A DNA stretch of 64,000 nucleotides. Origin: a virus. The stretch is from positions 15,562 to 79,561 of the IMG/VR virus record IMGVR_UViG_3300025127_000020; one strand, written 5' to 3'. Under the pieces are notes generated by a model that saw only the letters and a program-made list of their open reading frames with translations, made no database searches and was not told where the DNA came from. This document shows positions 27,964-63,927 of the stretch, in pieces. The position numbers and the translations under genes were made by a program. Each line of letters starts with the position of its first letter. Position 1 is the first letter of the stretch.

Positions 27964-27986
27964 TTAAATAAATTCCTCGCTCAGGA

Positions 27987-27994
27987 TAAATAGT
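27987..27994 (-). promoter_or_regulatory. Putative late promoter motif (ACTATTTA)
   Basis: About 23 nt upstream of ATG 27963. Confidence 0.65.
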
Positions 27995-28392: not shown

Positions 28393-28407
28393 TTGTTTTC
28401 CTCAAAT

Positions 28408-28415
28408 TAAATAGT
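28408..28415 (-). promoter_or_regulatory. Putative late promoter motif (ACTATTTA)
   Basis: About 15 nt upstream of ATG 28392. Confidence 0.65.
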
Positions 28416-38635: not shown

Positions 38636-38841
38636 TATTTATTCTCTTCTAAAATCTCTTCAATGGTAAAGGTTGGGGGGTTTGTGACTACCAGTTCTCC
38701 GTTTTTTGTTCCCCAGCGCTTAGTCGTCTCATCTTTAGTAAAATCCATTGACTTTAAAACTGGAACTATGTCTGTTTGTTCCAACAAACTTTTTTGAAGT
38801 GCCATCATAATAGCGCTCAATGCTTGATCACTCAGTTTCAT
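38635..38841 (-). CDS. Small hypothetical protein
   Basis: Likely start ATG 38841 (AGGAG RBS), MKLSDQALSAIMMALQKSL. Confidence 0.6.
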   Translation of the reverse strand: MKLSDQALSAIMMALQKSLLEQTDIVPVLKSMDFTKDETTKRWGTKNGELVVTNPPTFTIEEILEENK

Positions 38842-41247: not shown

Positions 41248-41255
41248 TTTTTCTC

Positions 41256-44549: not shown

Positions 44550-45446
44550 ATGATTAAAAAGATTTTTTTTCTTATTATAATTGCACTTATAGCTGGATGT
44601 GCTTCTTCAATCAAGCATCCAACAAGCATGAAAAAATCTTTTGTAAAAATTCACAAGTCAGTTGAAATAAAGATTTGTGGAGAAAACAGTCTGTCAAAGA
44701 CAAACGAATGCAAGAAATTAATGACGATGAATTCAACTGGTTCTGGTGGAGTTATTTGGAACGAGAGAGAAATTGGACAAATCCCAAGAACACTTGTCCT
44801 AACTGCTGATCACTTATGTGAAGATGAAGAATATTCAATAAAAGATTTTGACAAATCTGCTCATAATCACATAAAAAAAATTTTAGGCTTTAATAAAGAT
44901 TTTAAAATAATTTCTGATTCTTCCATGAGGGTTGTAGACAGTAGCGGAACCACCTACTCAGTAAAGAAAATTCCGTGGATAAGAAATGTTGCCGCAGACA
45001 CATGCGTGATTGAAACTTCAATGAACGTGCCCTCTCTTAAATTAGGATCTCCTCCAGAATACGGTCAAGAGGTTATTAACATCTCTGCTCCAAAAGGAAT
45101 CTATCATCCAAGCTCAAGTGGTGGAGGTGTCTTTTTTACTAAAGGAAGTTATAACGGTCAATTTTTAATGCCAGGAGGTAAAAAGAAAAAAAGAATTTTT
45201 TCAATGTATAACTTAAGCGCTGCTCCTGGCTCTAGTGGCTCCCCTATCTTAAACACAAATGGCGAAATTATTGGAATGATTCATTCTATTGATTCAAGTT
45301 ATTGTAATCTTATCACGGGTCAATGTAATAGTCCTATCAGCTACAGTGCAACAGTTGATCAAATTAAAGAAACATTAACTGAGGCACTTGCTGCAATAAA
45401 GAGAGGTAAGTCCATTAAATTTGACTATAACAAAATTAGTCAATAA
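44550..45446 (+). CDS. Trypsin-like serine protease, predicted lipoprotein
   Basis: Signal peptide MIKKIFFLIIIALIAG-C (lipobox); TGSG, LTADHLC (His), DTCVI (Asp), AAPGSSGSPI (Ser); AGGAGG RBS. Confidence 0.85.
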   Translation: MIKKIFFLIIIALIAGCASSIKHPTSMKKSFVKIHKSVEIKICGENSLSKTNECKKLMTMNSTGSGGVIWNEREIGQIPRTLVLTADHLCEDEEYSIKDFDKSAHNHIKKILGFNKDFKIISDSSMRVVDSSGTTYSVKKIPWIRNVAADTCVIETSMNVPSLKLGSPPEYGQEVINISAPKGIYHPSSSGGGVFFTKGSYNGQFLMPGGKKKKRIFSMYNLSAAPGSSGSPILNTNGEIIGMIHSIDSSYCNLITGQCNSPISYSATVDQIKETLTEALAAIKRGKSIKFDYNKISQ

Positions 45447-45955
45447 GAAAAAGGCTCCAGATAAGTTTTCCAAGCCTCGTCAATGTTATTATTAAAATTA
45501 TAAAATAATTTAATAGATGGAACACGAGGCGTGTTTTTAGGAAACATGTTTGCTTCTCTTGGAAGTTTGTTTGCTTTCTTTTGATTACACTTTCTACAAG
45601 CTGCTACTAGATTCTCCCAAGTCTTTGGACCACCAGCAGACTTCGGTGTTACATGATCTATTGTAAGCTCTCCTTTAGGAAACCTTGTGTTACAATATTG
45701 ACAAGTGTATTTATCTCTTATAAATAAATTGTTTCTCGTTACCCGCAGCGAGACTCTTGCCTTTCTAACATAACGATTGATTGCAATAACGGAAGGGACT
45801 TTAAATGATTCAGATGCGGAATTGACAAATGCACCTTCTCTATATTCTACAACGTTGGCTCTACCAGCAAACACCATAGTGAATGCCTCTGTCCAGTCTA
45901 TAACCTGAATAGGTCTATAGGAACTATCTAACTTTAAAACTTTCCAATTTTTCAA
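45440..45955 (-). CDS. HNH endonuclease (McrA-like)
   Basis: RDKYTCQYC...LTIDHVTPKSAGG..TWENLVAACRKCNQKK. Confidence 0.92.
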   Translation of the reverse strand: MKNWKVLKLDSSYRPIQVIDWTEAFTMVFAGRANVVEYREGAFVNSASESFKVPSVIAINRYVRKARVSLRVTRNNLFIRDKYTCQYCNTRFPKGELTIDHVTPKSAGGPKTWENLVAACRKCNQKKANKLPREANMFPKNTPRVPSIKLFYNFNNNIDEAWKTYLEPFSY

Positions 45956-47064
45956 AACTCTCCCTTAGAAAAGTGAGTCTGAATTTCCTTTTCTAAGAGT
46001 TCCACATAACCTTCAACGTTCTTTATGTTATTAGGACTGTATCTCCAAAGTAGTTCATTATTCTTTGGTCTATCTTCAAGATAACGTTTATGGTGATTAT
46101 TAATCGCCTCTTCAAGAGCGTCAGCACCAGCATGAACATCAAACTCTGGATAATAGTAGCCGTGTTCTTTAAACACTGGACTATTATGAATAAAAGGTAA
46201 ATTAAAGTGCATTGCTTCCAATTGGAGGTAGTTCAATTCGTTACACCATTGATGTGAGATAATTGAACCAGCATAACCTTTTTCTAATAAAAAGTTCAAA
46301 GCCCATCTTCCTTCGAAAGACATCTTCGCATCTTTGACTAAATCTAATCGATTACAAAATCTGACAAAGTTAACTTTATCTTTTAATAAAGAAGAACCAA
46401 CATTGAAAACTTGATCAATCATCTCTGGTTTTCTATTGTAAAGTTCTTCTGCTATTAGCATTGGAATAAAACACATCTTTACCATGTAAAGATTAGATTC
46501 CATAATAGCAATGTTTTTTAAGTTAGTGTGTGCTCCAAAAAAGGGACTATAACCAGCGCCCATGTAAGATAAGGTAATAATCTCTGGAGACCAAATGTAA
46601 GGGCAAATACTTACAGGAGCTTTTGCCATTGTCTGTAGTGCGTTTGCTGTTCTTTCAAAGTGCGGAGACGTCCAGTAGAAGTCAACCTCTGGCATAGTAA
46701 AACTAGCATCATCATCTTTATAGATCATAGTGCCCATGTCAATTAGAATCTTGTTTCCATATTCACAAGAACCAACAATTCCTTTATTTCCTTTGTGAAC
46801 CATTCTGACTTCTTCCGTCAAAGAATTGGCACACTGAATTAATACTTGATAATCAGAAACAGTAATAGTGTCTAATTTTTTAAGTTCAACGCCTAACAAC
46901 TTCTTACCATAATGTTTATCAGATTCAGAAACCATGTCAACATCATAGCCAGTATTTTTTAATAATTTATAAAGAAACCAAACGTTGGACTTAAGTCCAT
47001 TACCAAAAAGGTTTTCTTCACATTGTGAAGTGATTCCAATTTTTATGTGTTTACTTATTTTCAA
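45952..47064 (-). CDS. DUF2827-like protein (probable GT-B-related fold)
   Basis: KIGIT...LFGNGLKSNVWFLYKLL...PYIWSP...IMESNL..VK...SHQWCNELNYLQLE...P.IHNS...GYYYPEFD; TTG start with purine-rich RBS. Confidence 0.65.
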   Translation of the reverse strand: MKISKHIKIGITSQCEENLFGNGLKSNVWFLYKLLKNTGYDVDMVSESDKHYGKKLLGVELKKLDTITVSDYQVLIQCANSLTEEVRMVHKGNKGIVGSCEYGNKILIDMGTMIYKDDDASFTMPEVDFYWTSPHFERTANALQTMAKAPVSICPYIWSPEIITLSYMGAGYSPFFGAHTNLKNIAIMESNLYMVKMCFIPMLIAEELYNRKPEMIDQVFNVGSSLLKDKVNFVRFCNRLDLVKDAKMSFEGRWALNFLLEKGYAGSIISHQWCNELNYLQLEAMHFNLPFIHNSPVFKEHGYYYPEFDVHAGADALEEAINNHHKRYLEDRPKNNELLWRYSPNNIKNVEGYVELLEKEIQTHFSKGEF

Positions 47065-48377: not shown

Positions 48378-48411
48378 TTAAATGTCCTCCATATTAAAAA
48401 TAAGCTGTTAA

Positions 48412-48419
48412 TAAATAGT
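48412..48419 (-). promoter_or_regulatory. Putative late promoter motif (ACTATTTA)
   Basis: About 34 nt upstream of ATG 48377. Confidence 0.6.
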
Positions 48420-48436: not shown

Positions 48437-49201
48437 TTACAGTTCTAGCTCTTCTTCTTCAGATTCTTCAGTTTCTTCTTCTTTTTCGTTTTCATATTCA
48501 TCTGTTGTTGGTTCAGAAATAGTGGTTTTAAGTTCATCTTCAAACTTGTCAAAATAAAGTTTAACATTTGTCAAGAGATATTCTTCAAATAAATCTTGGT
48601 CTTCTTGATTTCCTAATAAAGAAAACGCATCGATGATTTGTTTTTCAATTTTATCAAAAGTTGCTTGAGCAAAATTTGAACCTGTCTTATCCTCGTCACC
48701 CAAATCTTTAAAGTTACCTTCTTCATCTTCGTCTTCTTTGCCATCGTCGTCGATGTCAATAAAAGCGTCATCATCTTCTGGCTTGTCGCCTATCTCGACT
48801 TCAATTTCATCTAGTTTTTCAACTTCTTCGATGCCAATAAATTTATCATCATCCCCACCAGCTTCCTTGTTTGCAGTTACTGGAGCCAAAGCGTTTTCTA
48901 TCGCAGTAAGAATGTGTGCGGAAAAAGACTTTCTCTGATCATCGCCTGTTGTAAGCATTTTGTAATCTTGCTCAATAACAGGGATAATCTTTTTCAATAA
49001 ATCCTCTAAAACATTTATTCCTGTAGATCTGTGTTGAACTTTTTCTGTTGCCGCTTCTTTTAGAAGTTTTCTAATTAAAGCTCGAAGCTCAAACTCTTCC
49101 CACACTCTATGGTCATCTTTATTTTTTGCTCTAACCTTGATAGCTCTCTTAATAAATTCTCTTAATTTAAGCTCTTGAATCATCTCATTTCTGTCAATCA
49201 T
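48437..49201 (-). CDS. Acidic hypothetical protein (putative head core/internal protein)
   Basis: Two N-terminal LRxxIR/K helices; very D/E-rich. Confidence 0.55.
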   Translation of the reverse strand: MIDRNEMIQELKLREFIKRAIKVRAKNKDDHRVWEEFELRALIRKLLKEAATEKVQHRSTGINVLEDLLKKIIPVIEQDYKMLTTGDDQRKSFSAHILTAIENALAPVTANKEAGGDDDKFIGIEEVEKLDEIEVEIGDKPEDDDAFIDIDDDGKEDEDEEGNFKDLGDEDKTGSNFAQATFDKIEKQIIDAFSLLGNQEDQDLFEEYLLTNVKLYFDKFEDELKTTISEPTTDEYENEKEEETEESEEEELEL

Positions 49202-49210
49202 TTTTATTCC

Positions 49211-52174
49211 TCAAACATTATATGTTTTTTGTTTTCCACCACCAAAATTGTCTGTCTTAAAATCATCTTTTCTCATGACAGTTATAATCTTCATAGCATC
49301 TGGACCTTTTTTCATTTCCAGTGCAGCCACAAGATTTAATGCTGGTGTTTTCGCATTCGCTTTGTGTCGAATAACAAATGCCTCACCATTAGCAATCTCA
49401 CCATTTGCATAGTCTTGAATAACTAGTCCCAAACCTCTTTCTGCTGCCTGCAAGATAGCATCTTTAGAAATAGTCTTACCCTTTCCGTGTCGAAATCTTC
49501 TTTCTTCTCCATGTTTTGAAGGCTCTAAATCCATGTCCTCTACATCGATAACAATCTTCATCTTTCCAACATTTACAACACTGGAATCACCGCTTCCGAT
49601 TTTACCATAAGACTCATCTAAAGGCTCGACTGTCAATTCATCTACAGGTCTTTTATAAGAAGTCTTAGGAAATTGCTTCATAAGTGAGATAAGATCTAAG
49701 ATAGGTGCGTCAATAATGATAACATCTATTTCATTATTCTCATCCAATTCTTTTAAAGCATACCATCTGTGATGACCGTCTACGAGGTGCTCATCACCAG
49801 AGACCATGACTGGTTTACCATTAGATAAATCTATCTGCCCTGCTTCATGCTTTGCTTTCATTGAATTTGTCTTATCAATGTTGATTTCTTTTTGAACTGG
49901 TGTAAGTTCGCCTACTCTCATTGAAGATTTTAGACACTCTACCCCTTTAGACTCCAACCAATCACAAAATTCCTGAACATCTGTTGACTTAATCTGAGGA
50001 AGGTTCATTCTAGGCATCCTCAACCCATAATCTAAACTTATAATGCCTCTTTCTTGGGGTTCTTCTGCTTCTTCACTTATAACTTCTTTAATGTCTTCAG
50101 AATCATCGTCTGTTGTGACACTGACTTTGTTTCCATCAACAGTTACATTAACGATAGTCTTTGTGGTGACCTCAACTTCTGTTTTTTCACCCCCTTCCTT
50201 CGTGGATTTTTGTTTTTCGTCTTCAGTTGAGTCGTCCTCTTGGTTATCAGTTCTTTGCGGACCGCCTAATTGACCTCCTGGCACTGATTCTGAATCAATT
50301 TTGACTGCTTCGTCGATCATCTCGTAAAGTTGCCTTAAAAGGCTGCTTTCGCCTTCTAATTTAGAATAAGATCCTTCGTCTATGACAGTACTTACCAATT
50401 CTTCCCAAAGGTCCATTGCAGAAGCCCCAGAAAGAGGAATCATTTTTTTAAAAGTGTCTAAATCTCGGTTAGCAATAGCTAATCCAAGTTTAGTTCCAGA
50501 AGCTCCAGTGTCTGACATCGATCCATCTACTTGTTCTAGGCTTACTGATAGATTATTTTTAGCAATAAATTGTTGCATGCGAGCGAAACGAGGATCTTCT
50601 GCATCTTTTTCACCCTTTGAGACTAAAACAGTTGTTCCCTCTGGAAATTCTTTCAACATTTCGTAAGTGTCTGCGATAGGAGAGGGGTAACTCGACACTG
50701 TAGCAATAATTTTGCCCTTATAACCGTTTTCATCGATGTATTTGTTCCAAATCTTCTCAGAAGTTTCGGGATAAACAATAAATAAGCCTTTTTCAGTCTC
50801 TCTTTTCACTGCTTTCTTAGAAATTATTACAATAACCTTGTCAGCTTCATAAGAATCAATCATTTCTTTGGCACCAAGGAAATGTCCAGCGTGTGGAGGC
50901 TTGAATTTACCTGGAAAAACACCAATTCTTTGACCGCCACCAGTATTTTCGGATAGATCACCGCCTTTTTTCTTTTCCCAAGGTAATAATCCCATAATTT
51001 GATTGACTGGAGCGAAGGAACCAGTGATTTTATAAGTGTTTCCATCAAAAGCAAACACGAAACCTTCCATTGAGGAGGAAATCTTGTCTAAACTCTTTAG
51101 CTTTCCAAGTTGATCCTTCAATTTATCAGACTTTACAGCATCACCAGCGGCTTCAATCTCTGCAATAGCGGCTTCTAGTCTATCTGCGATGCGATTTATC
51201 TCATCTTTGTGTGAAAGAACGAACCTAGACTTCAATCCATCGAGCATTGCGACTGCAAAGTCATGCACGATGTCCTCAAGAGGGAAAATAATTTCTTTTC
51301 TAACTCGTTTTTGGTCTTTAATGAAGTCTCGGACTGCTGATTTGACCTCTGGGTCTTTAATTCTCTTGTAGATCTGTGTTGCATTAACACCTTTAACACC
51401 GAACATTCGCTGCATTATCATCTTTTTAGTGTCATCATCGAGTTGTGGAAACATTCTTTCGATAAGATTGTCTAATTTAGAGATAATAAACTCTCCAACC
51501 TTTGCACCCTCACCAACTTCTGAACTTGCAAGTAGTTTTTTAAGACGTGAGACCGCTGTGTTGAGTGCTGTGTCATCAGAAAGTGCCCTTAATCTCTCAA
51601 CAGCTTTCATTTCTACACCAAATCCATTCTGTTTGTCAGACTTCTGAACTTGTTTTAGTGCTTTTCCTAGTAGATTTGCTTCCTTAGAGACATCTCTATC
51701 TGTAACTTTTCCAGTTTCACGGTCATATTCTCCGTGACCATCTCTATGAATAATAAGATTCTTTGAATTGTAGTTGATAATGTTTGGGTTATCAGGATCC
51801 ATTACTTCTGCATTATAAAAAATGTTAGCATCGGGACCAAACACTTTTAGCTTGACTTCTTCTGGCATTTGACTTACTGCGTCAACAAAGGCTTCAAAGG
51901 CTCCGTTGAATGCTGCCTCTAAAGTTCCACGACCTGCAAACTTTGCAGCGAGAGCTTCGGCATCCATTCCACCTTTCTTTACATTACCTACATTACGTGC
52001 AGCTTTTGCTTTACCATCTTTTACAGAATAAGAGACAAAAAGATTTTGCCCATCTAGCTTCTCACCACCTGTAATTTCTCCATTCGAGGCAGCAGTCATG
52101 ATTTTTATCATGTCGGTAAAAGTTAAGTCTGGATTGTCGTAGAGATGATCTACGTGTCCACCAAGTCCACCCAT
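49211..52174 (-). CDS. Multidomain protein: ligase-like nucleotidyltransferase + HIGH-type cytidylyl/adenylyltransferase + ParB/sulfiredoxin-like + small C-terminal RNase-like domain
   Basis: EKLDG...NAEV...EGFVF...YKITG; GVFPGKFKPPHAGH...GEKD...SGTK; PVQ...LVDGHHRW; SKHGEERRFRH...IITVM. Confidence 0.7.
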   Translation of the reverse strand: MGGLGGHVDHLYDNPDLTFTDMIKIMTAASNGEITGGEKLDGQNLFVSYSVKDGKAKAARNVGNVKKGGMDAEALAAKFAGRGTLEAAFNGAFEAFVDAVSQMPEEVKLKVFGPDANIFYNAEVMDPDNPNIINYNSKNLIIHRDGHGEYDRETGKVTDRDVSKEANLLGKALKQVQKSDKQNGFGVEMKAVERLRALSDDTALNTAVSRLKKLLASSEVGEGAKVGEFIISKLDNLIERMFPQLDDDTKKMIMQRMFGVKGVNATQIYKRIKDPEVKSAVRDFIKDQKRVRKEIIFPLEDIVHDFAVAMLDGLKSRFVLSHKDEINRIADRLEAAIAEIEAAGDAVKSDKLKDQLGKLKSLDKISSSMEGFVFAFDGNTYKITGSFAPVNQIMGLLPWEKKKGGDLSENTGGGQRIGVFPGKFKPPHAGHFLGAKEMIDSYEADKVIVIISKKAVKRETEKGLFIVYPETSEKIWNKYIDENGYKGKIIATVSSYPSPIADTYEMLKEFPEGTTVLVSKGEKDAEDPRFARMQQFIAKNNLSVSLEQVDGSMSDTGASGTKLGLAIANRDLDTFKKMIPLSGASAMDLWEELVSTVIDEGSYSKLEGESSLLRQLYEMIDEAVKIDSESVPGGQLGGPQRTDNQEDDSTEDEKQKSTKEGGEKTEVEVTTKTIVNVTVDGNKVSVTTDDDSEDIKEVISEEAEEPQERGIISLDYGLRMPRMNLPQIKSTDVQEFCDWLESKGVECLKSSMRVGELTPVQKEINIDKTNSMKAKHEAGQIDLSNGKPVMVSGDEHLVDGHHRWYALKELDENNEIDVIIIDAPILDLISLMKQFPKTSYKRPVDELTVEPLDESYGKIGSGDSSVVNVGKMKIVIDVEDMDLEPSKHGEERRFRHGKGKTISKDAILQAAERGLGLVIQDYANGEIANGEAFVIRHKANAKTPALNLVAALEMKKGPDAMKIITVMRKDDFKTDNFGGGKQKTYNV

Positions 52175-52178
52175 CTTC

Positions 52179-52433
52179 TTACTCCTTTGATCCTTCTTCT
52201 AGGATGCGAAGTTGTTCTTCAAGAGTTTCAATTCTCTCGTTTGCTTTTCTAAGATGTCTTTTAATTTCTTTTAGATTGTGCTTAGCGATATCGACTCTTC
52301 TAGAGTCTCTAAGGGAGCCTGTGCGAATGGAAGATAAAGCCTCTTCGATAGATTGAACGAGAGCTTGCCAATTGACCTGTTGTTTACCTTCGTTCACAAT
52401 AAACTTTCTCGTCATTTTTCTTAAATCTATCAT
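52179..52433 (-). CDS. Small coiled-coil protein
   Basis: 84 aa; heptad-like LKEIKRHLRKANERIETLEEQL; GGAGG RBS. Confidence 0.65.
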   Translation of the reverse strand: MIDLRKMTRKFIVNEGKQQVNWQALVQSIEEALSSIRTGSLRDSRRVDIAKHNLKEIKRHLRKANERIETLEEQLRILEEGSKE

Positions 52434-52512: not shown

Positions 52513-55500
52513 TCATTCGTAATCGTGACCTACTGGATATAGCTTGGTAACTTCTGTCCAATTAACTCCATCGTCTGCTCTGAAGGCTTGAAGGGTCATG
52601 TTACCAGCAGTTCCATCATTCATAGAAATAACAATCTTTAAATCAGACATCGCACCAGTGTGAGTGTGGTTTGAGCCAGCAAATGATGTAGAATTATAAT
52701 TGGCTGGAAAGTAGAAAGTTACATTTGTGTTATTATCTGGCGCATCAGCAATAGTGGTCGATTTAGTTCCTGAATTATCATCACCATAATAGCCAATAGC
52801 TAACTCAGTAGCAGTGGCAGAACTTCCTTTACCGAAAGGAACTACATATTGACTTGCACCACCAGTAGAGTTGCCAACTGAATATTCAGTTCTTCCACTA
52901 GTAACCTGACTATGCATTCTGTGTGATGCGTCACTAATGTTCCCCGTGCCGAGTTGTCGATAATCAATTAAATAATAATCTGTTCCTCCAATAGTCATTG
53001 TAACTGCACCTCTGTAATAATCAAACTCTTTAAGGTAATTTACAAAAGCATGATTATCTTGTGTAACAAAATCACTTAATTGAAGTTTCCAAAGTGGACC
53101 TTGCATGGCAACGTTTGTGCTACCCTGTGTTCTATATTTCCACGCAAAAGAATTTAGGAATTGATTAATGCCAGAGGATGTTTCAACATAAGGAGGAGAA
53201 ATTATAGCGTTATCTTCAGCTATCAATTTACCAGCACCCCAGTTAGTGTCTACTATGGTTGAATTTGTTGGAGAATTACTCATTCTAAACGCCCAAGACA
53301 TTATGCGAGAAGTATCAAGGTTATGTCTCCAGTGAAGACTTATGTATCTATGACTGGCACTTGTCCCAGTAGCTTTAGAGTTTATCCATGAGATGGTAAC
53401 TTGTTCATAATCAGAGTCCCAAGTAGTTGTAAACTGTTTAGAATCTGCCATGTAATTACCCCAATTCCCAGAAATAATTGAATGTGGTTCTTCAAGATTA
53501 TAAAATTTCTGAGCACAATCTTGAGAGCCAACACCTGAAACGGTAAACGTCACACTTGAAGCCTCTCCATTGCCATTCGAAAGCCCAGATGTGTCAATTC
53601 CTACTAACTTCATAACACTACAGCCTCCTCCGCCTCCGCCTGAGCCTCCACCTCCGCCAGGAGGTGATGGAGCTTCAGGAAGATTACTAGGCACAAATCC
53701 ATCTTCCTGTGTAATAACAGGTGGATGACTTTCTGGTGACGTCGGTCCTCTTGGGTTTGGTCTACCTGGAACTGAAAAAGGAACTTGTTCAACAGTAGTG
53801 CCACTTCCAGGTGCAGTCCATTCACTATTTTCTTTATCGACGTCGCAGATAACATATGTTGCATCACTATTGTGGCACCCACAATCACAATCTACAACAT
53901 TAATTGTTAAAACACCGCTTCCAACTTGACCTGCTGTGTCTGTTACTGTAAAGTTTTGCGTGTGAGTTCCAACAGCTACACCTGTTGTATTTATTGTTGC
54001 AACACCAGTGTTGACATCAATAGTTACGAGTCCTGCTGGGGCAGTCCCACCAGAAGTTTCTGCAAATAAAATTCCAGATTCTTGACCCTTTATTATGCAA
54101 CCATAATTCAGTTGAACAGAAAAGTCTGTTTCACCAGCGCAAATTTCAACTGTTTCAGACTGAGGGCACGGAGCGGTTGCACAGTTTGACACTGCAATTA
54201 GAGATTCGCTGCCACCTTGAGAACAAGAGTCGCCTTCATTAATTGCATCTGTAGAATCTGTGTTCCATAAGCCCCAATTTGCATGATTTGGATCGCCACT
54301 TACAGAACCATCTTTTGCTTGAGTTACAACTGCGTATTTATAACTTGAACTAGTGGCAAAAATCGCTTGGCTTGGCAGTGAACTATCTTTAAATGTTGTC
54401 GTCGCCTCATCTGTAGTTCCAACCTTTACATAAGGACCACCAGTTGGATGAGGCTTTCTATAGACTATGTAACGTTCAACAGTCTTTCCACTTGTTGCTG
54501 TGTTTGTCGCATTCCACGTAACAGTGACCTCTGGATGATTGCTATCGGAGCAGCTTGTAGCCGAAGTTGAAAGATTTGTTACATTTTCCAAAGCACAACA
54601 TTCTACAGTAACTGAAACAATTGTAGGCTCTGAAGTAACTACTGTGTTAGAGCTATTTGTAGTTTGAGCAGTGATTCTGTAGTTATAAATAACATCAGCA
54701 TTACAACATTCAGAAATTCCAGGTTCATCAACAAGAGTTATTTCTCTCTCACCTACATGATTTCTCGACTCAATTTTCGTGACGTCAGTAAAACTAGAGC
54801 TTGTAGATAATTTTCTTTGAATTACCCAAGTCGTTTCAGCTATGTCTCCAACCTCATTCTGAAGAGTGATCAAAACCTTACCAGAATTTTCTTCGCCACA
54901 TCCAAAAGGTGTTATTGTAAAATTTGGGTCGGGTGGAATGAAATTCAATTCAATAATCCCCCCAGGCTGTTCAATATTAAAACTAGGACCAGCGCCAGGG
55001 CGTGACATCGCTCTTGCAGTATAGGTAAATTCCACTTTGCCTAACAGATTCTCGGGTGGTCTATAAATTAATTTTCCTTCGTTTGCAAATGAACTGTCAA
55101 TTCTTCCGCCAAGACTTGGAACAGAAGTTACAATAACACTCACAGGAACTCCAGTTTCAGGAGAAGAGTTGCCAAAAAATGCTGGAGCATCGTTGAATGT
55201 TACTGGTAAAAATATTTCAACATCGCTATTCATAACACGAGTTAAAGAGACATCTGGTGTTGTAATAGTTCCGTCGCAGCAATTGTAAGAAACCGTAACT
55301 TCTTTTGCGACTTCGCCAGCGCTATTAAATGCTATTACATAATAAGTTGCTTCATGAGTTAGACTACAGTCTCTGACTGGAACACTTGGTAAATCAATGT
55401 AAGTTTGATGAGTTGATAGTGTTGTTAAGAATTCTAATTTAGTTGCATAAAGATCTTCTGTTCTGACAATTCCTTCTTTTAAAAATTTATTTATTAAAGC

Positions 55501-57333
55501 AGAATCAGGAGTTTTATATGATTCTGAGATTATTCTAGCCTTACGATAAACATTATAACCAGTTGCACTGGTAGACTGACCTATTGCTAGACTTATTTTT
55601 CCAGGGTTTGTTGGCTGATTACAAGCAATAAACGTGCCAGATAAAGTAAAATCTCCTGGTAATGTAATGCTACAACAATCACTAGGAACTATTAGAGCAG
55701 TGTTATCAGAGGCTGTGTCAAGCCCCTTAATTGTAATGTGATTTCCAACAGCTAAAACATCACTAATTGCAAGCTCACTTCTTCCAGTCTCTGAAATAAA
55801 TTTTTGAGTAAAAGTATTTAAAGAATCATAGGGTGAAGATTCTGCTCCGCCAAACCCTTCTCGATAATAGTAAAGACATGCCATTAAATCTTTTACACCG
55901 ACAGTCGAATGAGAGACGCTTCCTAAAAACCCATTCAAATCAATAGCAGTCCAATTATTAGAATAATCGTTAACAGGTGCTTTTAATGTCTCACTAGTCA
56001 CCATTTTAAAACTAGATAAAACTGGAATAGAAGAGAAAGATTCTAGGTTCACAACAACTCTTGTAAGTTTTTTAAATTTACCACCAGTAGACGGTAAGCT
56101 CCAAGCAGTTGTAGGTGAGTTTAAATCTCCCAAATCTACTGTCCCGTCTTCATTTTGATGTAATAATCTACCAAAAGAAAATCCAAAGATTCTGGTGTTT
56201 ATCTTTTCATCTGGTGCATTATAAGTTAGTCTATCTGAGTTTGATAATGCTGGATCTCTACCTAAATTTTCAAGCCACTGTTTTTTATATGCTTCTTGAT
56301 CATCTAATTGTAAAATCTTTAATGCTCCACCTACACCTTGAAATGCAGTTCTAGATTTTAATCCACCAAGAGTTATTTCGTAACCACTAATCCTGCACGT
56401 TGATTTATAACCAAACGTTATGACGGCTTCTTTACCATTCTTAGAAGTAGTTGAGTTTAAGATGCAAATTTCAGAATCGCAGTCGGAAGTTGTTGCAATA
56501 TCTTTCGGACTCTCACAAACAGTGCAGTCAGAATCGCTAATCATTTGTTCTTCACAGATATAATCAAATAAAATTTTTGAACCGTCAATTCTAAAGAGTT
56601 TATGAGAACATAAATCTGTTATATCATAATAACCCTTAAGTCTGGTGTCTTTGGATTTATTCCAATTAGTAGCATCGAATATAAGACCAGACTGATAAAT
56701 GTCTGCAATCTCATCTGTGAATGTATTGAAACTTGTGTCATCACCAAATCCAGACCAAGAATCATTTTTTATGTTGCTTGTAGTCAGGATTGCAAAAACT
56801 GGATTAGGGCTTGATGGAGAATTTATGTTGTCGTTTGCATAAACAATGCTTGTCTTGTTTGTAACATCTGAACTAGAAAGACCAGCAAATGCATTGTTAG
56901 AAGTCGTTATTTCAATAGTTAAAAAGTTAGTGTCTGTTTCCGCAGGAGCTAAAAATGTTCCAGCAGAAGAAAAGAATCCAAAGACTAAAAATCTATTCCC
57001 TCCCAGTGCTTGCGGTACTGAGATTTGAAACCCTGGCTGACTCCCTGCTCTCTCTGAAACATTAATGCTGGGACTTGTTATAGTAAGGGATGAATCGAAC
57101 TCAATTACAAATTGATAACCATACACCTTACTGGAGGATTTATAGTCTAGTTGAATTGTAGCAGTTGTGTCGCTGTCTTTGGTGACCCCTTCTACTTTTA
57201 CTGTTCTATAACAAATTGTAGAGTCTCCACAAATCAAACCTTCAGGATTCTTATTTGTCCCTGAAACACCTTTTCCTGATGAAGCAGGGTCAGAACCAGA
57301 GCCACCACTGGGTGGGGGGGCAAACATGGTCAT
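52513..57333 (-). CDS. Large virion surface/fibre-like protein: cohesin-like and degenerate dockerin-like modules, FN3/Ig repeats, Gly linker, C-terminal domain
   Basis: LDYKSSSKVYGYQF...VFGFF; FGYKSTCRISGYEI...IFGFSF; IDLNG...VGVKDL; GYNVYR, YIVYRK...YKYAV FN3 patterns; Cys-rich junctions. Confidence 0.6.
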   Translation of the reverse strand: MTMFAPPPSGGSGSDPASSGKGVSGTNKNPEGLICGDSTICYRTVKVEGVTKDSDTTATIQLDYKSSSKVYGYQFVIEFDSSLTITSPSINVSERAGSQPGFQISVPQALGGNRFLVFGFFSSAGTFLAPAETDTNFLTIEITTSNNAFAGLSSSDVTNKTSIVYANDNINSPSSPNPVFAILTTSNIKNDSWSGFGDDTSFNTFTDEIADIYQSGLIFDATNWNKSKDTRLKGYYDITDLCSHKLFRIDGSKILFDYICEEQMISDSDCTVCESPKDIATTSDCDSEICILNSTTSKNGKEAVITFGYKSTCRISGYEITLGGLKSRTAFQGVGGALKILQLDDQEAYKKQWLENLGRDPALSNSDRLTYNAPDEKINTRIFGFSFGRLLHQNEDGTVDLGDLNSPTTAWSLPSTGGKFKKLTRVVVNLESFSSIPVLSSFKMVTSETLKAPVNDYSNNWTAIDLNGFLGSVSHSTVGVKDLMACLYYYREGFGGAESSPYDSLNTFTQKFISETGRSELAISDVLAVGNHITIKGLDTASDNTALIVPSDCCSITLPGDFTLSGTFIACNQPTNPGKISLAIGQSTSATGYNVYRKARIISESYKTPDSALINKFLKEGIVRTEDLYATKLEFLTTLSTHQTYIDLPSVPVRDCSLTHEATYYVIAFNSAGEVAKEVTVSYNCCDGTITTPDVSLTRVMNSDVEIFLPVTFNDAPAFFGNSSPETGVPVSVIVTSVPSLGGRIDSSFANEGKLIYRPPENLLGKVEFTYTARAMSRPGAGPSFNIEQPGGIIELNFIPPDPNFTITPFGCGEENSGKVLITLQNEVGDIAETTWVIQRKLSTSSSFTDVTKIESRNHVGEREITLVDEPGISECCNADVIYNYRITAQTTNSSNTVVTSEPTIVSVTVECCALENVTNLSTSATSCSDSNHPEVTVTWNATNTATSGKTVERYIVYRKPHPTGGPYVKVGTTDEATTTFKDSSLPSQAIFATSSSYKYAVVTQAKDGSVSGDPNHANWGLWNTDSTDAINEGDSCSQGGSESLIAVSNCATAPCPQSETVEICAGETDFSVQLNYGCIIKGQESGILFAETSGGTAPAGLVTIDVNTGVATINTTGVAVGTHTQNFTVTDTAGQVGSGVLTINVVDCDCGCHNSDATYVICDVDKENSEWTAPGSGTTVEQVPFSVPGRPNPRGPTSPESHPPVITQEDGFVPSNLPEAPSPPGGGGGSGGGGGGCSVMKLVGIDTSGLSNGNGEASSVTFTVSGVGSQDCAQKFYNLEEPHSIISGNWGNYMADSKQFTTTWDSDYEQVTISWINSKATGTSASHRYISLHWRHNLDTSRIMSWAFRMSNSPTNSTIVDTNWGAGKLIAEDNAIISPPYVETSSGINQFLNSFAWKYRTQGSTNVAMQGPLWKLQLSDFVTQDNHAFVNYLKEFDYYRGAVTMTIGGTDYYLIDYRQLGTGNISDASHRMHSQVTSGRTEYSVGNSTGGASQYVVPFGKGSSATATELAIGYYGDDNSGTKSTTIADAPDNNTNVTFYFPANYNSTSFAGSNHTHTGAMSDLKIVISMNDGTAGNMTLQAFRADDGVNWTEVTKLYPVGHDYE

Positions 57334-60300
57334 TACACTAATCCTCCTACTGGGTCGTCTGAAGAGTTAAATAAATAATTAATGTCTTTGTCTATGGAAA
57401 CTCTACTTGAGATCCATTTTGCACCACATTTAGAACTTCTTTTTGTTTTATGTGATAAATGGTCTTTAAATTTATTAATTGCGAATCGAGTCTCTGGGTC
57501 ACTGTTTCTTAAAGTTTCATAAGTAAAGTCAGAAGGAGAACCAACATGCGTAGAAGGAAGTGATGACTTTAATCCAAACTTCATAGCTAAGTAGGCTTCT
57601 ACTTTTTGTCTAAAATCGTCCGTCACAGAATCAGAATAAAACAAAAATTCATAAATTTTACCATTGAAACCCTTTGTTCCACTTGCAGGATTACCAGTTC
57701 CATCATAACCAAGTGCCCATCCAAAATCGTTGTCTGTGAGAGTAGAAGTAATAGAATTGGAAACATCAGTTCCAACAAGAGTTCCGTTTAAAAATAGTTT
57801 ACAATCACCACCAGCTTGTCCAAGAAAAGTTACAACCTGTTTTGTTCTTAAATCAGATAGGCTGGAATAACTATGTGTAAGTGTTATTGTCCCACCAGAA
57901 GTTGTAACACATTTAGCAATAAGAGAACCATTGCTTGTTGTGTCGAATTTAAGACTTATTTGCGGCTGTGTTGTGGAAACATTTGTTCCAATTGTAGTAA
58001 AAACAATTCCCTCATCAGGTGAAGTTGGCATAACAGGTTCCACAACAACAGAAGCCATCCAAGTGGTTATGTTTTTTGTTCTTGCATAAATCACACTATC
58101 AGATGTCAAACCCTGAGTTCCACTGAATGAAACGTGGTCTGCGCCTCTAGTAGGACTGTAGGTCGTGTTGTCAGAGTGAGGAATAAGATCTAAACCTTGG
58201 CTTACCCATTTTGTAATGTTGGAACTAGTGTCTACAACTACGCTGTCTTCAAATGTTTTTGATGCATCGCAGATTTGAATTAAGGATTTATCGTTTACTT
58301 GTGTTCCAAACCTTTGTTTTGTTCCCTGATTTGCCTCAATTGTGTTGTCGTTTGAGACATTCCAATTTGATAAATAATCTTTTTCTCCTTGAAAAGAACT
58401 ATCTAAGTTTGGAATAAATAAATTGTTAGATTTTCCAAGCGGTGGGCAAATAAGCTCTTGTCCACTTGAAATAATAGATTTTTCAAAAACATCTTTATCT
58501 AAAATTATTCTACATAGTATTCCCTTGCCTATGAGATTTCTTGGTTCAGCGTAGTTTCCAGAAAAGCCAGTAATTAAAATTATGTCTTCTCCATTGGAGT
58601 CTGTAGTATTTTGAGCAGATATATTCCATCCATTTAAAGACTTCACTCCAATGTTTGTAATGAAGCTACTCCACTTAGCACCGTTCCATGTTCTGATAGC
58701 AAAGTTAAATCTTCTAAATTGCTTTTTAGAATTATAAATAATGTCTATTGCGTTCGTTCCAATAGCAGATGTGTGAAGAACATAATCACTGTAAGTGTGA
58801 GTTGAACTACTGTTATCTTCATAATTTTGTAATAAGATGCTACTGGGCGGACCTAAAATTAAATCACCATTTCCAGAATTATAATTTACTTCAGAAACGT
58901 CAGTAGTCAAAGAACCCACTGTTTCATCGTAAGTTCCTTTTGGTCTTTTTCTAAAATGAATGTGTCCATCTGATAGTCTTATGGTTTCTTCTTTTAATCC
59001 TTCAATATTTTTATCCAATAAAATAGTTGCAATCTTAAATGCTCCACCATCATAGGTTATTGGAATTGCATTGTTTTCAACGGAAGATGCCCCACTAGCG
59101 ACTCTACAAACAAAATGAATTTCCCCTTCAGATGCATCACCACTAATCGGAAATGTGTATGAACCGTCAGAATTTGCACTTATTGGTGTAGTTTTATTAT
59201 TCTTATAAACTTCTAATCCTGCAAATGAACTGTTTAAAATAATTTTTGCAGTTACTGCGGTGTCTGTTAAAGCATAGCCTGAACAAATGTTTAATGTAAA
59301 TCTAGCATGGTCTATAAAATTAATCTCACGGTTACTCGTGTGCATCTTTACTTCAAATAGTGCGCCACCATTTTGCAAAGTTCGAATGTCTGGAGCATTT
59401 TTATAAGGAATGGAATAAATGTCTTTTTGATAACGGTACCAATCTTTAAACTCTTGAGGCAGTGTTGTTAAATAATTTGAACCCTCAGTGAATGAATCTG
59501 GAAATTTTCTTAAAAATGGTAACGAGTTTGAAGAATAGGTAATAGCAGTGTTTCCTCTTTCTCCCTTTTTAACGCTTGTTATTGTAACCTTCGAGCCACT
59601 AATCGCAGTCGTAAAAGAGTTACCATGTGTAGCATCTCCATCGATTGCATTTTTAAAGTTTGTAGCAGTAGCGCTTGCAGACCCGCCTATGGTTACTGAG
59701 ACATTAGAGCCAGAAACTCCTGCTGCACTTTCAAATTCATAAACTTTTGTTACGCCGTCCCAATCTGTTAGTGTGATGGTTTCCGCATCTACGCCAACTC
59801 CTCTAAATTCTATTTCAGCAGAAGCGGCTTTATCAGGTAAAATGTCTGTTCTTTGTGACAAATAAAGCATAACTTTAGGGTCTTGATCTTCTAAAGAATG
59901 AACAGACGGGCAGATTGACGGATAGGTAGACGTTCTATAACCATTATTTTGAGAATAGGAAGGGACTATTCTATCAAGTTCTCTTGCTGAAGTAAGAGAG
60001 TCGATCTGTGCAAGGTTCCAAAAACTAACGTCGCTTGAACTCGCAAACTTATTATTGTTGCCACTCTTAGAAATAACTGATAAAGAAGATGCATCAAATG
60101 TTCCGCCATTAAAAGGCAAAGACATCCTCATTTGAGACAGGTTGACAAAAGCTACTAAGTCTGCTACATCAAATCGACCGTCGAGATTTGAATCAATGTC
60201 AAATCCCGATGCACTACTTAAATAAGAATAAGCAGAGAAAGTTGGATTAGAGTCAAGTCCGTTGTAGAGAGATTTTTTTATATAATCTCTAAAAGTCTTT

Positions 60301-61913: not shown

Positions 61914-61940
61914 CTTCGATAAAGTCCTCTTGTTTCATAA

Positions 61941-61948
61941 TAAATAGT
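61941..61948 (-). promoter_or_regulatory. Putative late promoter motif (ACTATTTA)
   Basis: About 27 nt upstream of ATG 61913, just downstream of a terminator. Confidence 0.65.
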
Positions 61949-63894: not shown

Positions 63895-63919
63895 TTTATA
63901 AAGCCTCCAATTCAACTAA

Positions 63920-63927
63920 TAAATAGT
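63920..63927 (-). promoter_or_regulatory. Putative late promoter motif (ACTATTTA)
   Basis: About 25 nt upstream of ATG 63894. Confidence 0.65.

What the first reader, a model, noticed from the sequence alone, without database searches (positions are those of the whole stretch)
49211..52174. 987-aa four-enzyme polyprotein: ligase-like NTase + HIGH NTase + ParB/Srx + RNase-like domain, separated by prohead-protease-type sites
Seen: domain 1 (about 50970-52174) has covalent nucleotidyltransferase motifs EKLDG (Lys39), EGFVF and YK. Domain 2 (about 50390-50935) has GKFKPPHAGH...SGTK. Domain 3 (about 49650-50030) has LVDGHHRW. Domain 4 (about 49211-49610) has SKHGEERRFRH...IITVM. The boundaries carry LSE, IDE, IDE, ISE, VDE and LDE in acidic linkers. 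Known: KxDG marks RNA/DNA ligases and capping enzymes; HxGH marks NMNAT/cytidylyltransferases; T4 gp21 cleaves after (I/L)xE; HAxxRxxxR-type motifs occur in small toxin RNases. Inference: a late-made, head-packaged polyprotein matured into separate enzymes and injected to counter host defences, e.g. by tRNA/RNA repair or NAD/nucleotide-signal manipulation. I know of no characterised system with this architecture.
Basis: partly seen in the sequence, partly recalled or inferred. Interest (0 to 1): 0.82.

Follow-up and report, generated by a model that had tools for sequence, protein, structure and literature searches.

The report
Capsid-cut four-enzyme phage polyprotein
A marine T4-like phage encodes one 987-residue protein made of an RNA-ligase-like, an NAD-synthesis-like, a ParB-like and an RNase-toxin-like enzyme; relatives carry head-protease cutting sites at every domain border, so it is probably loaded into the capsid, cut apart and injected with the DNA, though no experiment shows this yet.

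Summary
ORF 49211-52174 (-) is a real, strongly conserved 987-aa protein of an uncultured T4-like myovirus, and it has four domains.
- D1: covalent nucleotidyltransferase of RNA-ligase fold, Lys39 (AF2 pLDDT 92.7; best VIA Z 9.5).
- D2: NadD/NMNAT-like HxGH nucleotidyltransferase.
- D3: ParB/Srx fold.
- D4: RelE/BECR RNase-like fold.

The polyprotein reading gains strong comparative support.
- D1 always begins at the same Gly-Gly. It follows either the initiator Met or a hydrophobic-x-Glu triplet. This holds for 61/61, 56/58 and 42/42 N-terminal extensions and for 12/13 internal copies.
- Separately encoded D2 and D4 relatives carry T4-CTS-like leader peptides. These end in the same register as the internal sites of this protein.
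- All 10 large contigs tested encode a gp21-type prohead protease.
- The gene lies in a conserved three-gene cassette whose two flanking genes have CTS-like N-termini.
- Published virion proteomes of two T4-like cyanophages contain the cytidylyltransferase, which one profile comparison links weakly to D2.

Packaging, cleavage and the biochemical role (RNA repair or NAD/nucleotide rescue) remain inferred. The closest known kinds are T4 Alt and internal proteins, and the 'polyvalent proteins' of Iyer et al. 2017. This scan already found, and followed up, the same family on other DNA (e1-5788339, e1-5810433). Rating: new variant of a known kind.

The parts
49211..52174 (-). Whole 987-aa ORF (P0001), including its stop codon at 49211-49213
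   Evidence: more than 100 full-length homologs down to 35% identity
50948..52174 (-). D1, residues 1-409: covalent (lysine) nucleotidyltransferase of RNA-ligase fold, with a helical insert at about 200-360. K39 is the predicted nucleotidylated lysine. The domain ends at L-S-E409.
   Evidence: AF2 pLDDT 92.7. VIA: NgrRnl Z 9.5, TbREL1 9.3, T4 Rnl2 8.9, Rnl1 8.8. Foldseek top hits are all ligases. Invariant motif residues.
50309..50947 (-). D2, residues 410-622: HxGH (HIGH-type) nucleotidyltransferase, NadD/NMNAT-like. It ends at I-D-E622.
   Evidence: Pfam CTP_transf_like 0.0014 for the query and 1.3e-6 in homologs. PDB profile hit to NadD at 2.4e-4.
50072..50308 (-). Acidic, hypervariable spacer, residues 623-701, bounded by the two best-conserved sites (E622 in 32/37, E701 in 34/37)
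49613..50071 (-). D3, residues 702-854: ParB/Srx-fold domain with DGHHRW
   Evidence: AF2 pLDDT above 93 over the domain. VIA: sulfiredoxin Z 7.8, SerK 7.3, PadC 7.2. Foldseek: ParB-N/Noc, probability 1.0. phrog_2859 at 4e-24. ParBc_2 in 22/38 members.
49214..49612 (-). D4, residues 855-987: RelE/ParE/BECR-like RNase-fold domain. It starts right after L-D-E854.
   Evidence: VIA: CdiA-CT Z 5.9, RelE 5.6-5.5, HigB2 5.3, T4 RegB 4.3. Foldseek: HigB2/RelE/YoeB. DUF4258 weak. Stand-alone D4 proteins begin in this register.
52179..52433 (-). Upstream 84-aa coiled-coil gene, 4 nt from the ORF, with a CTS-like N-terminus ending I-V-N-E15. Conserved partner in the cassette.
   Evidence: 41/50 unique N-termini have the site at 7-18, mostly 13-16
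48437..49201 (-). Downstream 254-aa very acidic gene. Its first 10 residues (MIDRNEMIQE) resemble the T4 capsid targeting sequence. Conserved partner in the cassette.
   Evidence: (46/51 unique N-termini have the site at 7-18, mostly 9-12)
61940..61948 (-). Late-type motif ACTATTTAT heading the transcription unit that contains the ORF. The same motif precedes the baseplate genes gp6 and gp25.
   Evidence: 11 matches against 2.7 expected

Best explanation
The ORF encodes a late-expressed cargo polyprotein of a T4-like myovirus. It is made with the structural proteins, incorporated into the prohead, and cut by the phage's gp21-type prohead protease after (L/I/V/M)-x-Glu at the domain borders (E409, E622, E701, E854). 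This would release four separate enzymes that are ejected into the host with the DNA. D1 is a lysine nucleotidyltransferase of RNA-ligase fold. D2 is a NadD/NMNAT-like adenylyltransferase. D1 and D2 form the ancient, obligatorily linked core of the family. D3 (ParB/Srx NTP-binding, kinase- or nuclease-type) and D4 (RelE/BECR-type endoribonuclease) are accessory modules of this clade. The most likely job is to act in the first minutes of infection on host or phage RNA and nucleotide pools: sealing RNA cut by host defence nucleases, with D2 supplying or restoring an adenylylated cofactor such as NAD+, and D4 cutting host RNA. Shown here: the folds, the catalytic motifs, the conservation and register of the sites, the presence of the protease, the synteny. 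Inferred: packaging, cleavage, ejection, substrates.
For: Folds and motifs.
The genome is T4-like and encodes Peptidase_S77/gp21 (3e-33). All 10 large contigs tested that carry family members also encode it.
gp21 cuts after L/I-x-E, and the T4 CTS is a roughly 10-aa leader removed at such a site (PMC9026906; bioRxiv 10.1101/2021.01.19.427310).
D1 N-terminus rule:
- 144 proteins start Met-Gly-Gly, and 61/61 real extensions end hydrophobic-x-Glu directly before Gly-Gly.
- Among 141 further 50%-identity representatives there are 51 Met-GG starts, 56/58 extensions and 12/13 internal D1 copies obeying the rule.
- 42/42 unique leaders of the stand-alone D1 clade end this way, and they begin with a T4-CTS-like peptide.
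- P3 is Leu or Ile in 51/53 unique sites.
- Microcystis phage Mel-JY01 has the order D2-D1 with an I-A-E|GG junction.
D1/D2 linker: 142/145 unique linkers carry a site (71% in shuffles). The Glu sits 9-12 residues before the PG.FKPPH motif in 104/145. D2-first proteins have a 10-aa leader and a site in that same register.
Stand-alone D4 proteins have a 14-aa leader that ends where E854 lies.
Cassette with CTS-like flanking genes: 82% and 90% of unique N-termini carry a site, against 28% of other ORFs in the same loci.
The late-type motif is shared with baseplate genes.
Fusion partners elsewhere include a peptidoglycan M23 peptidase and a 2H/LigT phosphoesterase.
Virion mass spectrometry of the cyanophages S-SZBM1 and S-CREM2 detected the cytidylyltransferase (PMC9146016, PMC10665884). 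In S-SZBM1 that gene follows a DUF6267 gene and starts with a 9-aa CTS-like leader.
Against: This protein has no N-terminal targeting peptide, since it starts Met-Gly-Gly, so how it would reach the prohead is unknown.
No virion proteome exists for this phage or any close relative.
The homology of D1/D2 to the cyanophage DUF6267/cytidylyltransferase pair is distant. hhalign gave probability 1% for D1 and 52-59% for D2 and the junction. The A2 profile found nothing in the two cyanophage records. The PF19782 HMM found nothing in this genome.
Hydrophobic-x-Glu is a short motif that is common in acidic linkers. Counts over related sequences are not independent events.
Conserved sites also occur inside folded domains (E228, E239, E482, E809).
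The second NTase motif of D2 is degenerate in this clade (SGTKLG, lacking the Arg seen in most relatives).
The D4 fold match is only middling (Z 5-6).
Confidence: 0.6

Rival explanations
1. The protein is an uncleaved multifunctional cytoplasmic enzyme. It would work during infection as one chain (for example an RNA-repair or nucleotide-salvage machine) and would never enter the capsid. The hydrophobic-x-Glu triplets would be structural features of linkers.
For: There is no N-terminal targeting peptide on this protein. Multidomain RNA-repair enzymes such as Trl1 and Pnkp work uncleaved (established knowledge), and Trl1 and T4 Rnl1 are among the best fold matches. Linkers of this composition carry a site by chance in 71% of shuffles.
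Against: This reading does not explain why every upstream extension of D1, whether 5 residues or a whole domain, ends in L/I-x-Glu directly before the same Gly-Gly. It does not explain why separately encoded D2 and D4 carry T4-CTS-like leaders in the same register. It also leaves unexplained the late operon, the CTS-bearing neighbours and the virion detection of the cyanophage cytidylyltransferase.
Confidence: 0.15
2. The protein is packaged and ejected as one intact 'polyvalent protein'. In relatives only the N-terminal leader is removed, and the internal sites are not used because they are inaccessible.
For: T4 IPs are cut only once, next to the CTS. Many polyvalent proteins are thought to be delivered whole or processed only after entry (PMC5512222). 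The evidence for the N-terminal site is much stronger than for the internal ones.
Against: Internal D1 copies are preceded by the same site in 12/13 cases. The domain order is permuted, with the site kept at the new junction. The sites lie in low-confidence or hypervariable linkers. The internal sites match the leader-cleavage register of the stand-alone D2 and D4 forms.
Confidence: 0.17
3. The sites are cut by another Glu-directed protease, for example the trypsin-fold peptidase at 44550-45446 (+), and the processing is unrelated to the capsid.
For: A Trypsin_2-type serine peptidase is encoded 4 kb away (7.8e-13). Some S1 peptidases are Glu-specific (established knowledge).
Against: The P3 Leu/Ile preference is the gp21 signature. 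The leaders resemble the T4 CTS. gp21 homologs co-occur in 10/10 contigs. I did not test whether the trypsin-like gene is conserved with the family.
Confidence: 0.04

Closest known systems
Phage T4 Alt and internal proteins IPI-IPIII (CTS-targeted, gp21-processed, ejected head proteins)
   Same: The phage is T4-like and has a gp21-type protease. The cleavage motif is L/I-x-Glu. Relatives carry 7-14-residue leaders like the T4 CTS. Like Alt, the cargo is enzymatic, and the gene sits among late and structural genes.
   Different: This is a chain of four unrelated enzymes with internal sites, not one small basic protein or one ADP-ribosyltransferase. This member has no N-terminal leader. There is no sequence similarity to Alt or the IPs.
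Polyvalent proteins of phages and conjugative elements (Iyer, Burroughs, Anand, de Souza, Aravind 2017, PMC5512222)
   Same: One polypeptide carries several disparate enzymatic domains. It is encoded next to virion genes and predicted to be injected and proteolytically separated. ParB/Srx plus BECR-fold RNase is a typical pairing in that set.
   Different: There is no zincin metallopeptidase domain in the chain, so processing would be by the prohead protease in trans. In the passages I read, no RNA-ligase or HxGH domain is named among the polyvalent-protein domains, and the paper says its 2H domains are never found with RNA ligases. I did not test whether D3 belongs to their DdrB-ParB clade or D4 to one of their PBECR families.
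Cyanomyovirus T4-GC71 (Pfam DUF6267) plus 'cytidylyltransferase' (fused in S-PM2 d138, adjacent genes 141/140 in S-SZBM1)
   Same: The order of a KxDG/EGFV domain followed by an HxGH nucleotidyltransferase is the same. The S-PM2 fusion protein is a structural match to the D1 model (BFVD E 4e-6). The S-SZBM1 cytidylyltransferase has a CTS-like leader and was found in virions.
   Different: Sequence similarity is marginal. The cyanophage proteins have no D3 or D4, and their D1-like domain starts differently (no Gly-Gly).
ATP-dependent RNA ligases (T4 Rnl1, T4 Rnl2/TbREL1, NgrRnl, fungal Trl1 ligase domain)
   Same: The nucleotidyltransferase fold is shared, and so is the order of motifs I, Ia, III, IV and V with an invariant Lys.
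   Different: A helical module of about 160 residues is inserted between motif IIIa and motif IV. None of the appended OB, N-terminal or C-terminal domains that define Rnl1-Rnl5 is present. Motif V has one Lys rather than KxK. There is a conserved His-rich Gly-Gly N-terminus.

Membership tests
Covalent nucleotidyltransferase superfamily (ligases/capping enzymes) | Motif I KxDG with the nucleotidylated Lys | tested here: met
   E38-K39-L-D41-G42 is invariant in 39 sequences down to 26% identity.
Covalent nucleotidyltransferase superfamily (ligases/capping enzymes) | Motifs Ia, III, IV and V in order | tested here: met
   R60-N61, E123, E370-G-F-V-F374 and K382 are invariant. Assigning each residue to a named motif is my inference.
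Covalent nucleotidyltransferase superfamily (ligases/capping enzymes) | Nucleotidyltransferase fold | tested here: met
   In the VIA search, 25 of the top 26 rows are ligases or capping enzymes. The best is Z 9.5, rmsd 4.4, 188 residues aligned. The Foldseek top hits are all ligases but weak (E 4.5e-3).
Covalent nucleotidyltransferase superfamily (ligases/capping enzymes) | Formation of a Lys-NMP adduct and strand joining | not testable with these tools
   This needs an adenylylation and ligation assay.
Named RNA ligase families Rnl1-Rnl5 (Pfam RNA_ligase PF09414 and others) | Family-specific appended domain and a match to the family profile | tested here: inconclusive
   PF09414 matched only at 0.037, in 2 of 38 members. 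No PDB sequence hit covers D1. A helical insert stands in place of an appended domain.
HIGH-signature nucleotidylyltransferases (Pfam CTP_transf_like; NadD/NMNAT/PPAT) | (H/T)xGH motif after the first strand | tested here: met
   P426-P-H428-A-G430-H431 is invariant and aligns to the NadD motif.
HIGH-signature nucleotidylyltransferases (Pfam CTP_transf_like; NadD/NMNAT/PPAT) | Profile score above the curated cut-off | tested here: inconclusive
   The query scores 19.3 bits against a cut-off of 21. Eight homologs match, the best at 1.3e-6. The PDB profile hits NadD at 2.4e-4, but only over 45 residues.
HIGH-signature nucleotidylyltransferases (Pfam CTP_transf_like; NadD/NMNAT/PPAT) | Second motif, S-x-T-x-x-R type | tested here: inconclusive
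   Most homologs have S-G-T-x-M-R. The query clade has S-G-T-K-L-G, without the Arg.
ParB/Srx superfamily | Fold, and a DGxHR-type active-site loop | tested here: met
   Sulfiredoxin Z 7.8, SerK 7.3 and ParB-N 7.1. Foldseek probability 1.0. D799-G-H-H-R803-W is invariant.
ParB CTPase clamps (chromosomal ParB/Noc/KorB) | GERRxRA-type CTP-binding box, plus an HTH and a dimerisation domain | tested here: not met
   No such box and no further domain is present in residues 702-854.
RelE/ParE/BECR-fold RNases (incl. PBECR, DUF4258) | N-terminal helix followed by a 4-5-stranded sheet | tested here: inconclusive
   The model has that topology. Matches are CdiA-CT Z 5.9, RelE 5.6 and HigB2 5.3. This is below the level at which a fold match is safe.
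RelE/ParE/BECR-fold RNases (incl. PBECR, DUF4258) | [quoted passage not shown] | tested here: met
   H888/H896 and R892/R893/R895 lie in the helix, and T965 lies in the last long strand. All are invariant. The criterion comes from PMC5512222.
T4-type capsid-targeted, gp21-processed head proteins | gp21-family protease in the same genome | tested here: met
   PF03420 at 3.2e-33 at G000:C1:5486-5941.
T4-type capsid-targeted, gp21-processed head proteins | L/I-x-Glu sites at exposed, conserved positions | tested here: met
T4-type capsid-targeted, gp21-processed head proteins | N-terminal targeting peptide on this protein | tested here: not met
   The protein starts Met-Gly-Gly, and only 8 in-frame codons lie upstream. 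Relatives and both flanking genes do carry such a peptide.
T4-type capsid-targeted, gp21-processed head proteins | Presence in virions in processed form | not testable with these tools
   The only evidence is indirect: the cytidylyltransferase was detected in S-SZBM1 and S-CREM2 virions.
Polyvalent proteins (PMC5512222) | Two or more disparate enzymatic domains in one chain, encoded among virion or late genes | tested here: met
   Four domains. The neighbours are giant virion proteins, and a late-type motif heads the unit.
Polyvalent proteins (PMC5512222) | Zincin metallopeptidase hub domain in the chain | tested here: not met
   No peptidase domain was found by Pfam, PHROGs or the PDB profile.

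The most novel reading that the evidence does not exclude
T4-like phages of the ocean use the T4 capsid-targeting and gp21 system as a general modular delivery platform. A very large, uncharacterised family (2442 clusters at 50% identity) of RNA-ligase-fold enzymes, obligatorily paired with an NMNAT-like enzyme, would be pre-loaded in capsids and injected. This would give the phage RNA-sealing and NAD-type cofactor chemistry before any phage gene is expressed. It would be a first-minute counter to RNA-cutting or NAD-depleting host immunity, and the first virion-packaged RNA ligase.
Probability: 0.3. Interest if true: 0.85.

Novelty: new variant of a known kind. Interest (0 to 1): 0.66.

Why it matters
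If true, capsid-injected cargo in T4-like phages is much richer than Alt and the small internal proteins. Whole enzyme sets would be concatenated or leader-tagged and matured by the prohead protease.

The D1-D2 core is abundant in marine viromes: 2442 clusters at 50% identity. Its probable cyanophage counterpart has been annotated for about 15 years merely as 'cytidylyltransferase', an auxiliary metabolic gene of unknown role.

A testable model (packaged RNA ligase plus NMNAT-like enzyme) would give that gene pair a function. It would also link it to current work on RNA-targeting and NAD-depleting defence systems.

The leader/site grammar found here can be used to predict the ejected proteome of uncultured T4-like phages from sequence alone.

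Tried and rejected
- The T4 late promoter TATAAATA occurs 12 times, but not upstream of this operon. A different motif, ACTATTTA(T/A), precedes the baseplate genes and this transcription unit.
- No tRNA or tmRNA gene lies in the window. The tmRNA/tRNA linkage reported for relatives in note e1-5810433 therefore does not hold within these 64 kb.
- Megablast of 20 kb against cultured phages gave no match. tblastn finds D1 in only three records: two huge uncultured phages and Microcystis phage Mel-JY01.
- The Pfam DUF6267 HMM found nothing in this genome or in four relatives. The D1 profile found nothing in S-PM2 or S-SZBM1. hhalign of the D1 profile against the S-SZBM1 DUF6267 protein gave probability 1%. 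The link to DUF6267 therefore rests on fold, motif order and the ESM Atlas lead, and I do not file D1 as a member.
- PHROGs names nothing for D1, D2 or D4. The PDB profile search gives nothing for D1 or D4.
- No paper was found on Mel-JY01 or on DUF6267.
- I considered ParB-CTPase membership for D3 and rejected it, because the CTP box is absent.
Full report
WHAT IS THERE. The window is part of a 79.5-kb IMG/VR viral contig estimated 44% complete, with about 36% G+C. It carries T4-type genes:
- gp47-like SbcD, gp61 primase, and gp6- and gp25-like baseplate wedge proteins;
- a gp55-like late sigma factor, dexA-like exonuclease and PhoH.

ORF 49211-52174 on the minus strand gives 987 residues. 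AAGGAG lies 8 nt before the ATG, and only eight in-frame codons lie upstream. More than 100 metagenomic proteins share the full length down to 35% identity, on contigs of up to 198 kb. The gene is real and under selection.

THE FOUR DOMAINS.

D1 (residues 1-409). With an alignment that includes stand-alone relatives of about 420 aa, AlphaFold2 gave pLDDT 92.7 and pTM 0.89.
- An all-against-representatives structural search put ligases and capping enzymes in 25 of its first 26 rows. The best were Naegleria RNA ligase (Z 9.5, rmsd 4.4, 188 aligned), TbREL1 (9.3), T4 Rnl2 (8.9), T4 Rnl1 (8.8) and fungal Trl1 (8.4).
- Foldseek listed the same families, but weakly (best E 4.5e-3).
- K39 in E-K-x-D-G, R60-N61, E123, H143, E370-G-x-x-F374 and K382 are invariant down to 26% identity.
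- The model shows a helical module (about 200-360) inserted before motif IV. None of the appended domains that define Rnl1-Rnl5 is present.
- I therefore place D1 in the covalent nucleotidyltransferase superfamily, nearest the RNA ligases, but in no named family.

D2 (410-622).
- It has the invariant P-P-H-x-G-H and aligns to NadD at that motif (PDB profile E 2.4e-4).
- Pfam CTP_transf_like is just under the cut-off for the query and reaches 1.3e-6 in homologs.
- The second motif is S-G-T-x-M-R in most homologs but lacks the Arg in this clade.

D3 and D4 were modelled together (pLDDT 84; D3 above 93; D4 74-91).
- D3 matches sulfiredoxin (Z 7.8), free serine kinase (7.3), PadC and ParB-N domains. 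It carries the invariant D-G-H-H-R-W, and 22 of 38 family members touch Pfam ParBc_2.
- D4 matches CdiA-CT, RelE, ParE, HigB2 and YoeB, and more weakly T4 RegB, at Z 4.3-5.9.
- D4 has an invariant His/Arg-rich first helix and an invariant Thr in the last long strand. This is the configuration described for phage BECR RNases (PMC5512222).
- The D4 fold match alone is middling. Taken with the residue pattern, I regard an RNase-type domain as likely.

THE FAMILY.
- A profile of D1 finds 2442 cluster representatives (50% identity) at E<=1e-3, and 1269 at E<=1e-30.
- Domain HMMs built from the alignment show that D1-D2 is the persistent core (about 95 of 141 representatives). There are D1-only forms, a few D1-D2-D3(-D4) forms, and permuted D2-D1 forms.
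- Microcystis phage Mel-JY01 is the only cultured phage found, and it has D2-D1 in one 639-aa protein.
- Other partners include an M23 peptidoglycan peptidase and a 2H/LigT phosphoesterase (2.4e-15). The latter is the classical end-healing partner of RNA ligases.
- Fusion in both orders argues that D1 and D2 act in one process.

THE CLEAVAGE-SITE EVIDENCE. T4 gp21 cuts after Glu in L/I-x-E. Alt loses a 7-residue propeptide, and the IPs lose a 10-residue capsid targeting sequence (CTS), MKTYQEFIAE (PMC9026906; bioRxiv 10.1101/2021.01.19.427310). Five observations bear on this.

(i) D1 always starts at the same Gly-Gly.
- 144 proteins begin Met-Gly-Gly, and all 61 with a real extension end it in hydrophobic-x-Glu directly before Gly-Gly.
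- In 141 further representatives the figures are 51 Met-GG starts, 56 of 58 short extensions and 12 of 13 internal D1 copies. The exceptions read L-L-C.
- In the stand-alone clade, 42 of 42 unique leaders end this way, and they begin with a peptide of the T4 CTS pattern (aromatic-x-E-F-L/I-x-E).
- P3 is Leu or Ile in 51 of 53 unique sites.
- Whatever lies upstream, whether nothing, a short propeptide, a CTS-like leader or whole domains, the junction is the same. That is what a processing site predicts and what a structural motif does not.

(ii) In 145 unique D1-to-D2 linkers, 142 carry a site (71% in composition-preserving shuffles). The Glu lies 9-12 residues before the D2 P-G-x-F-K-P-P-H motif in 104 of them. 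Proteins that start with D2 have a 10-residue leader and a site in that same register.

(iii) Stand-alone D4 proteins start with a 14-residue leader whose final Glu aligns with E854 of this protein.

(iv) E622 and E701 flank a hypervariable acidic spacer and are conserved as sites in 32 and 34 of 37 full-length homologs.

(v) A Peptidase_S77 (gp21) gene is present in this contig (3.2e-33). It is also present in all nine other large contigs tested that carry family members.

Caveats:
- The sequences are related, so counts are not independent events. At least a dozen unrelated leader types obey the rule.
- The motif is short.
- Conserved triplets also occur inside folded domains, where gp21 would not be expected to reach.

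CONTEXT.
- The gene is 4 nt downstream of an 84-aa coiled-coil gene and 9 nt upstream of a 254-aa very acidic gene. Both have CTS-like N-termini, with sites at residue 15 and residue 10.
- This three-gene cassette recurs in 54 IMG/VR loci. Sites occur at 7-18 (mostly 13-16) in 41/50 unique upstream N-termini, and at 7-18 (mostly 9-12) in 46/51 unique downstream N-termini. Among other ORFs of the same loci the figure is 28%.
- The transcription unit starts at a motif, ACTATTTAT (61940-61948), that also precedes the gp6- and gp25-like genes. It occurs 11 times against 2.7 expected. The unit includes two giant proteins, one of which touches a virion-structural PHROG.
- Late expression is therefore likely, but it is inferred.

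LINK TO CYANOPHAGES AND EXPERIMENT.
- The ESM Atlas pointed to clusters in which a quarter of members carry Pfam DUF6267.
- The viral structure library matched the D1 model to a 591-aa S-PM2 protein (E 4e-6).
- DUF6267 is found in S-PM2 d138 (T4-GC 71, fused to an HxGH domain) and in S-SZBM1 gene 141, directly upstream of the 'cytidylyltransferase' gene 140.
- These proteins show the same motif order: H-L-x-H-L, K-x-D-G, E-G-F-V, then HxGH.
- Sequence-level support is marginal, so I call them probable distant counterparts, not members.
- S-SZBM1 gene 140 begins with a 9-residue CTS-like leader. Both it and the next gene, 139, were detected by LC-MS in CsCl-purified virions (PMC9146016).
- The S-CREM2 cytidylyltransferase was also found in virions, and its authors suggested encapsidation (PMC10665884). 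I did not compare the S-CREM2 protein with D2.
- This is the only experimental evidence bearing on packaging, and it is indirect.

MECHANISM AND ODDS.
- I put about 0.6 on the full model: late synthesis, incorporation into the prohead, gp21 cleavage at E409, E622, E701 and E854 into products of about 45, 24, 17 and 15 kDa plus a discarded acidic spacer, then ejection.
- Two smaller alternatives are packaging without internal cleavage (about 0.17) and a purely cytoplasmic uncleaved enzyme (about 0.15).
- How this member is targeted is open, since it starts Met-Gly-Gly. Candidates are the translationally coupled 84-aa partner, or the amphipathic helix that ends at E622.
- The biochemical role is the weakest part. 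The nearest folds are RNA ligases, a relative is fused to a 2H domain, and D4 is RNase-like. These favour RNA-end chemistry.
- A NadD-like partner suggests supply or restoration of an adenylylated cofactor such as NAD+. None of this was tested.

COMPARISON AND NOVELTY.
- It works like T4 Alt and the IPs (targeting leader, gp21 site, ejection). It looks like a 'polyvalent protein' in the sense of Iyer et al. 2017, and ParB plus BECR is one of their typical pairings.
- It lacks their metallopeptidase hub. It adds an RNA-ligase-like plus HxGH core that I did not see named among the polyvalent-protein domains in the passages I read.
- It fails one membership feature of each kind: no CTS on this chain, and no in-chain peptidase.
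- I rate it a new variant of a known kind.

EARLIER NOTES OF THIS SCAN.
- The same family was noted and followed up on other DNA, with the same reading (e1-5788339; also e1-5810433, e1-5648199, e1-5982832).
- Note e1-6014015, on this window, proposed the shared leader/site system. I tested that on the flanking genes and across loci, and it holds.

Noticed in passing
window 61940-61948, 63919-63927, 63069-63077, 48411-48419, 28407-28415, 27986-27994 and others (minus strand): The motif ACTATTTA(T/A) occurs 11 times against 2.7 expected, 9 of them on the coding strand. It sits just upstream of the gp6- and gp25-like baseplate genes and of several genes around the finding. It is probably this phage's late promoter, and it differs from T4's TATAAATA.
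   Followed up: partly
window 48437-49201 (-) and 52179-52433 (-): The two genes flanking the finding have T4-CTS-like N-termini. With the D1-D2 gene they form a three-gene cassette conserved in 54 IMG/VR loci. The downstream protein is extremely acidic, like a prohead core or scaffold protein.
   Followed up: partly
P0400 (1385 aa) and P0303 (1288 aa), metagenomic relatives: D1 is fused to a 2H/LigT phosphoesterase (2.4e-15) in one relative and to an M23 peptidoglycan peptidase (6.9e-21) in another. The first contradicts the statement in PMC5512222 that 2H domains of polyvalent proteins never accompany RNA ligases.
   Followed up: no
P0378, P0393, P0406 (metagenomic relatives): The only exceptions to the Glu rule before D1 read L-L-L-C directly before Gly-Gly, with Cys in place of Glu. 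The reason is unknown.
   Followed up: no
L121:7271-9229, L152:10415-12984, L144:10679-12565: In loci with stand-alone D1, several neighbouring large genes also begin with CTS-like leaders (for example M-N-F-x-x-F-L-N-E). These may be clusters of capsid cargo genes. The gene just downstream of D1 there has an E-K-I-x-G motif that might be a second ligase-like enzyme.
   Followed up: no
window 44550-45446 (+): This is the only plus-strand ORF of 100 aa or more in the window outside larger minus-strand genes. It is a trypsin-fold serine peptidase (Trypsin_2, 7.8e-13).
   Followed up: no
window 52513-57333 (-) and 57333-61913 (-): Two giant proteins (1606 and 1526 aa) lie in the same transcription unit. 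One touches Pfam Cohesin (4e-4, below cut-off) and the other touches a virion-structural PHROG (9e-6).
   Followed up: no
window 38828-41265 (-), 45440-45955 (-) and 45952-47064 (-): Two glycosyltransferase genes, an HNH endonuclease (1e-32) and a DUF2827 protein (5e-68) lie between the baseplate module and the finding.
   Followed up: no
residues 2-10 of D1 (window about 52145-52171): G3, G6, H7 and H10 are invariant, and the chain must apparently begin exactly at Gly2. Why a free Gly-Gly N-terminus is needed next to a ligase-type active site is unexplained.
   Followed up: no
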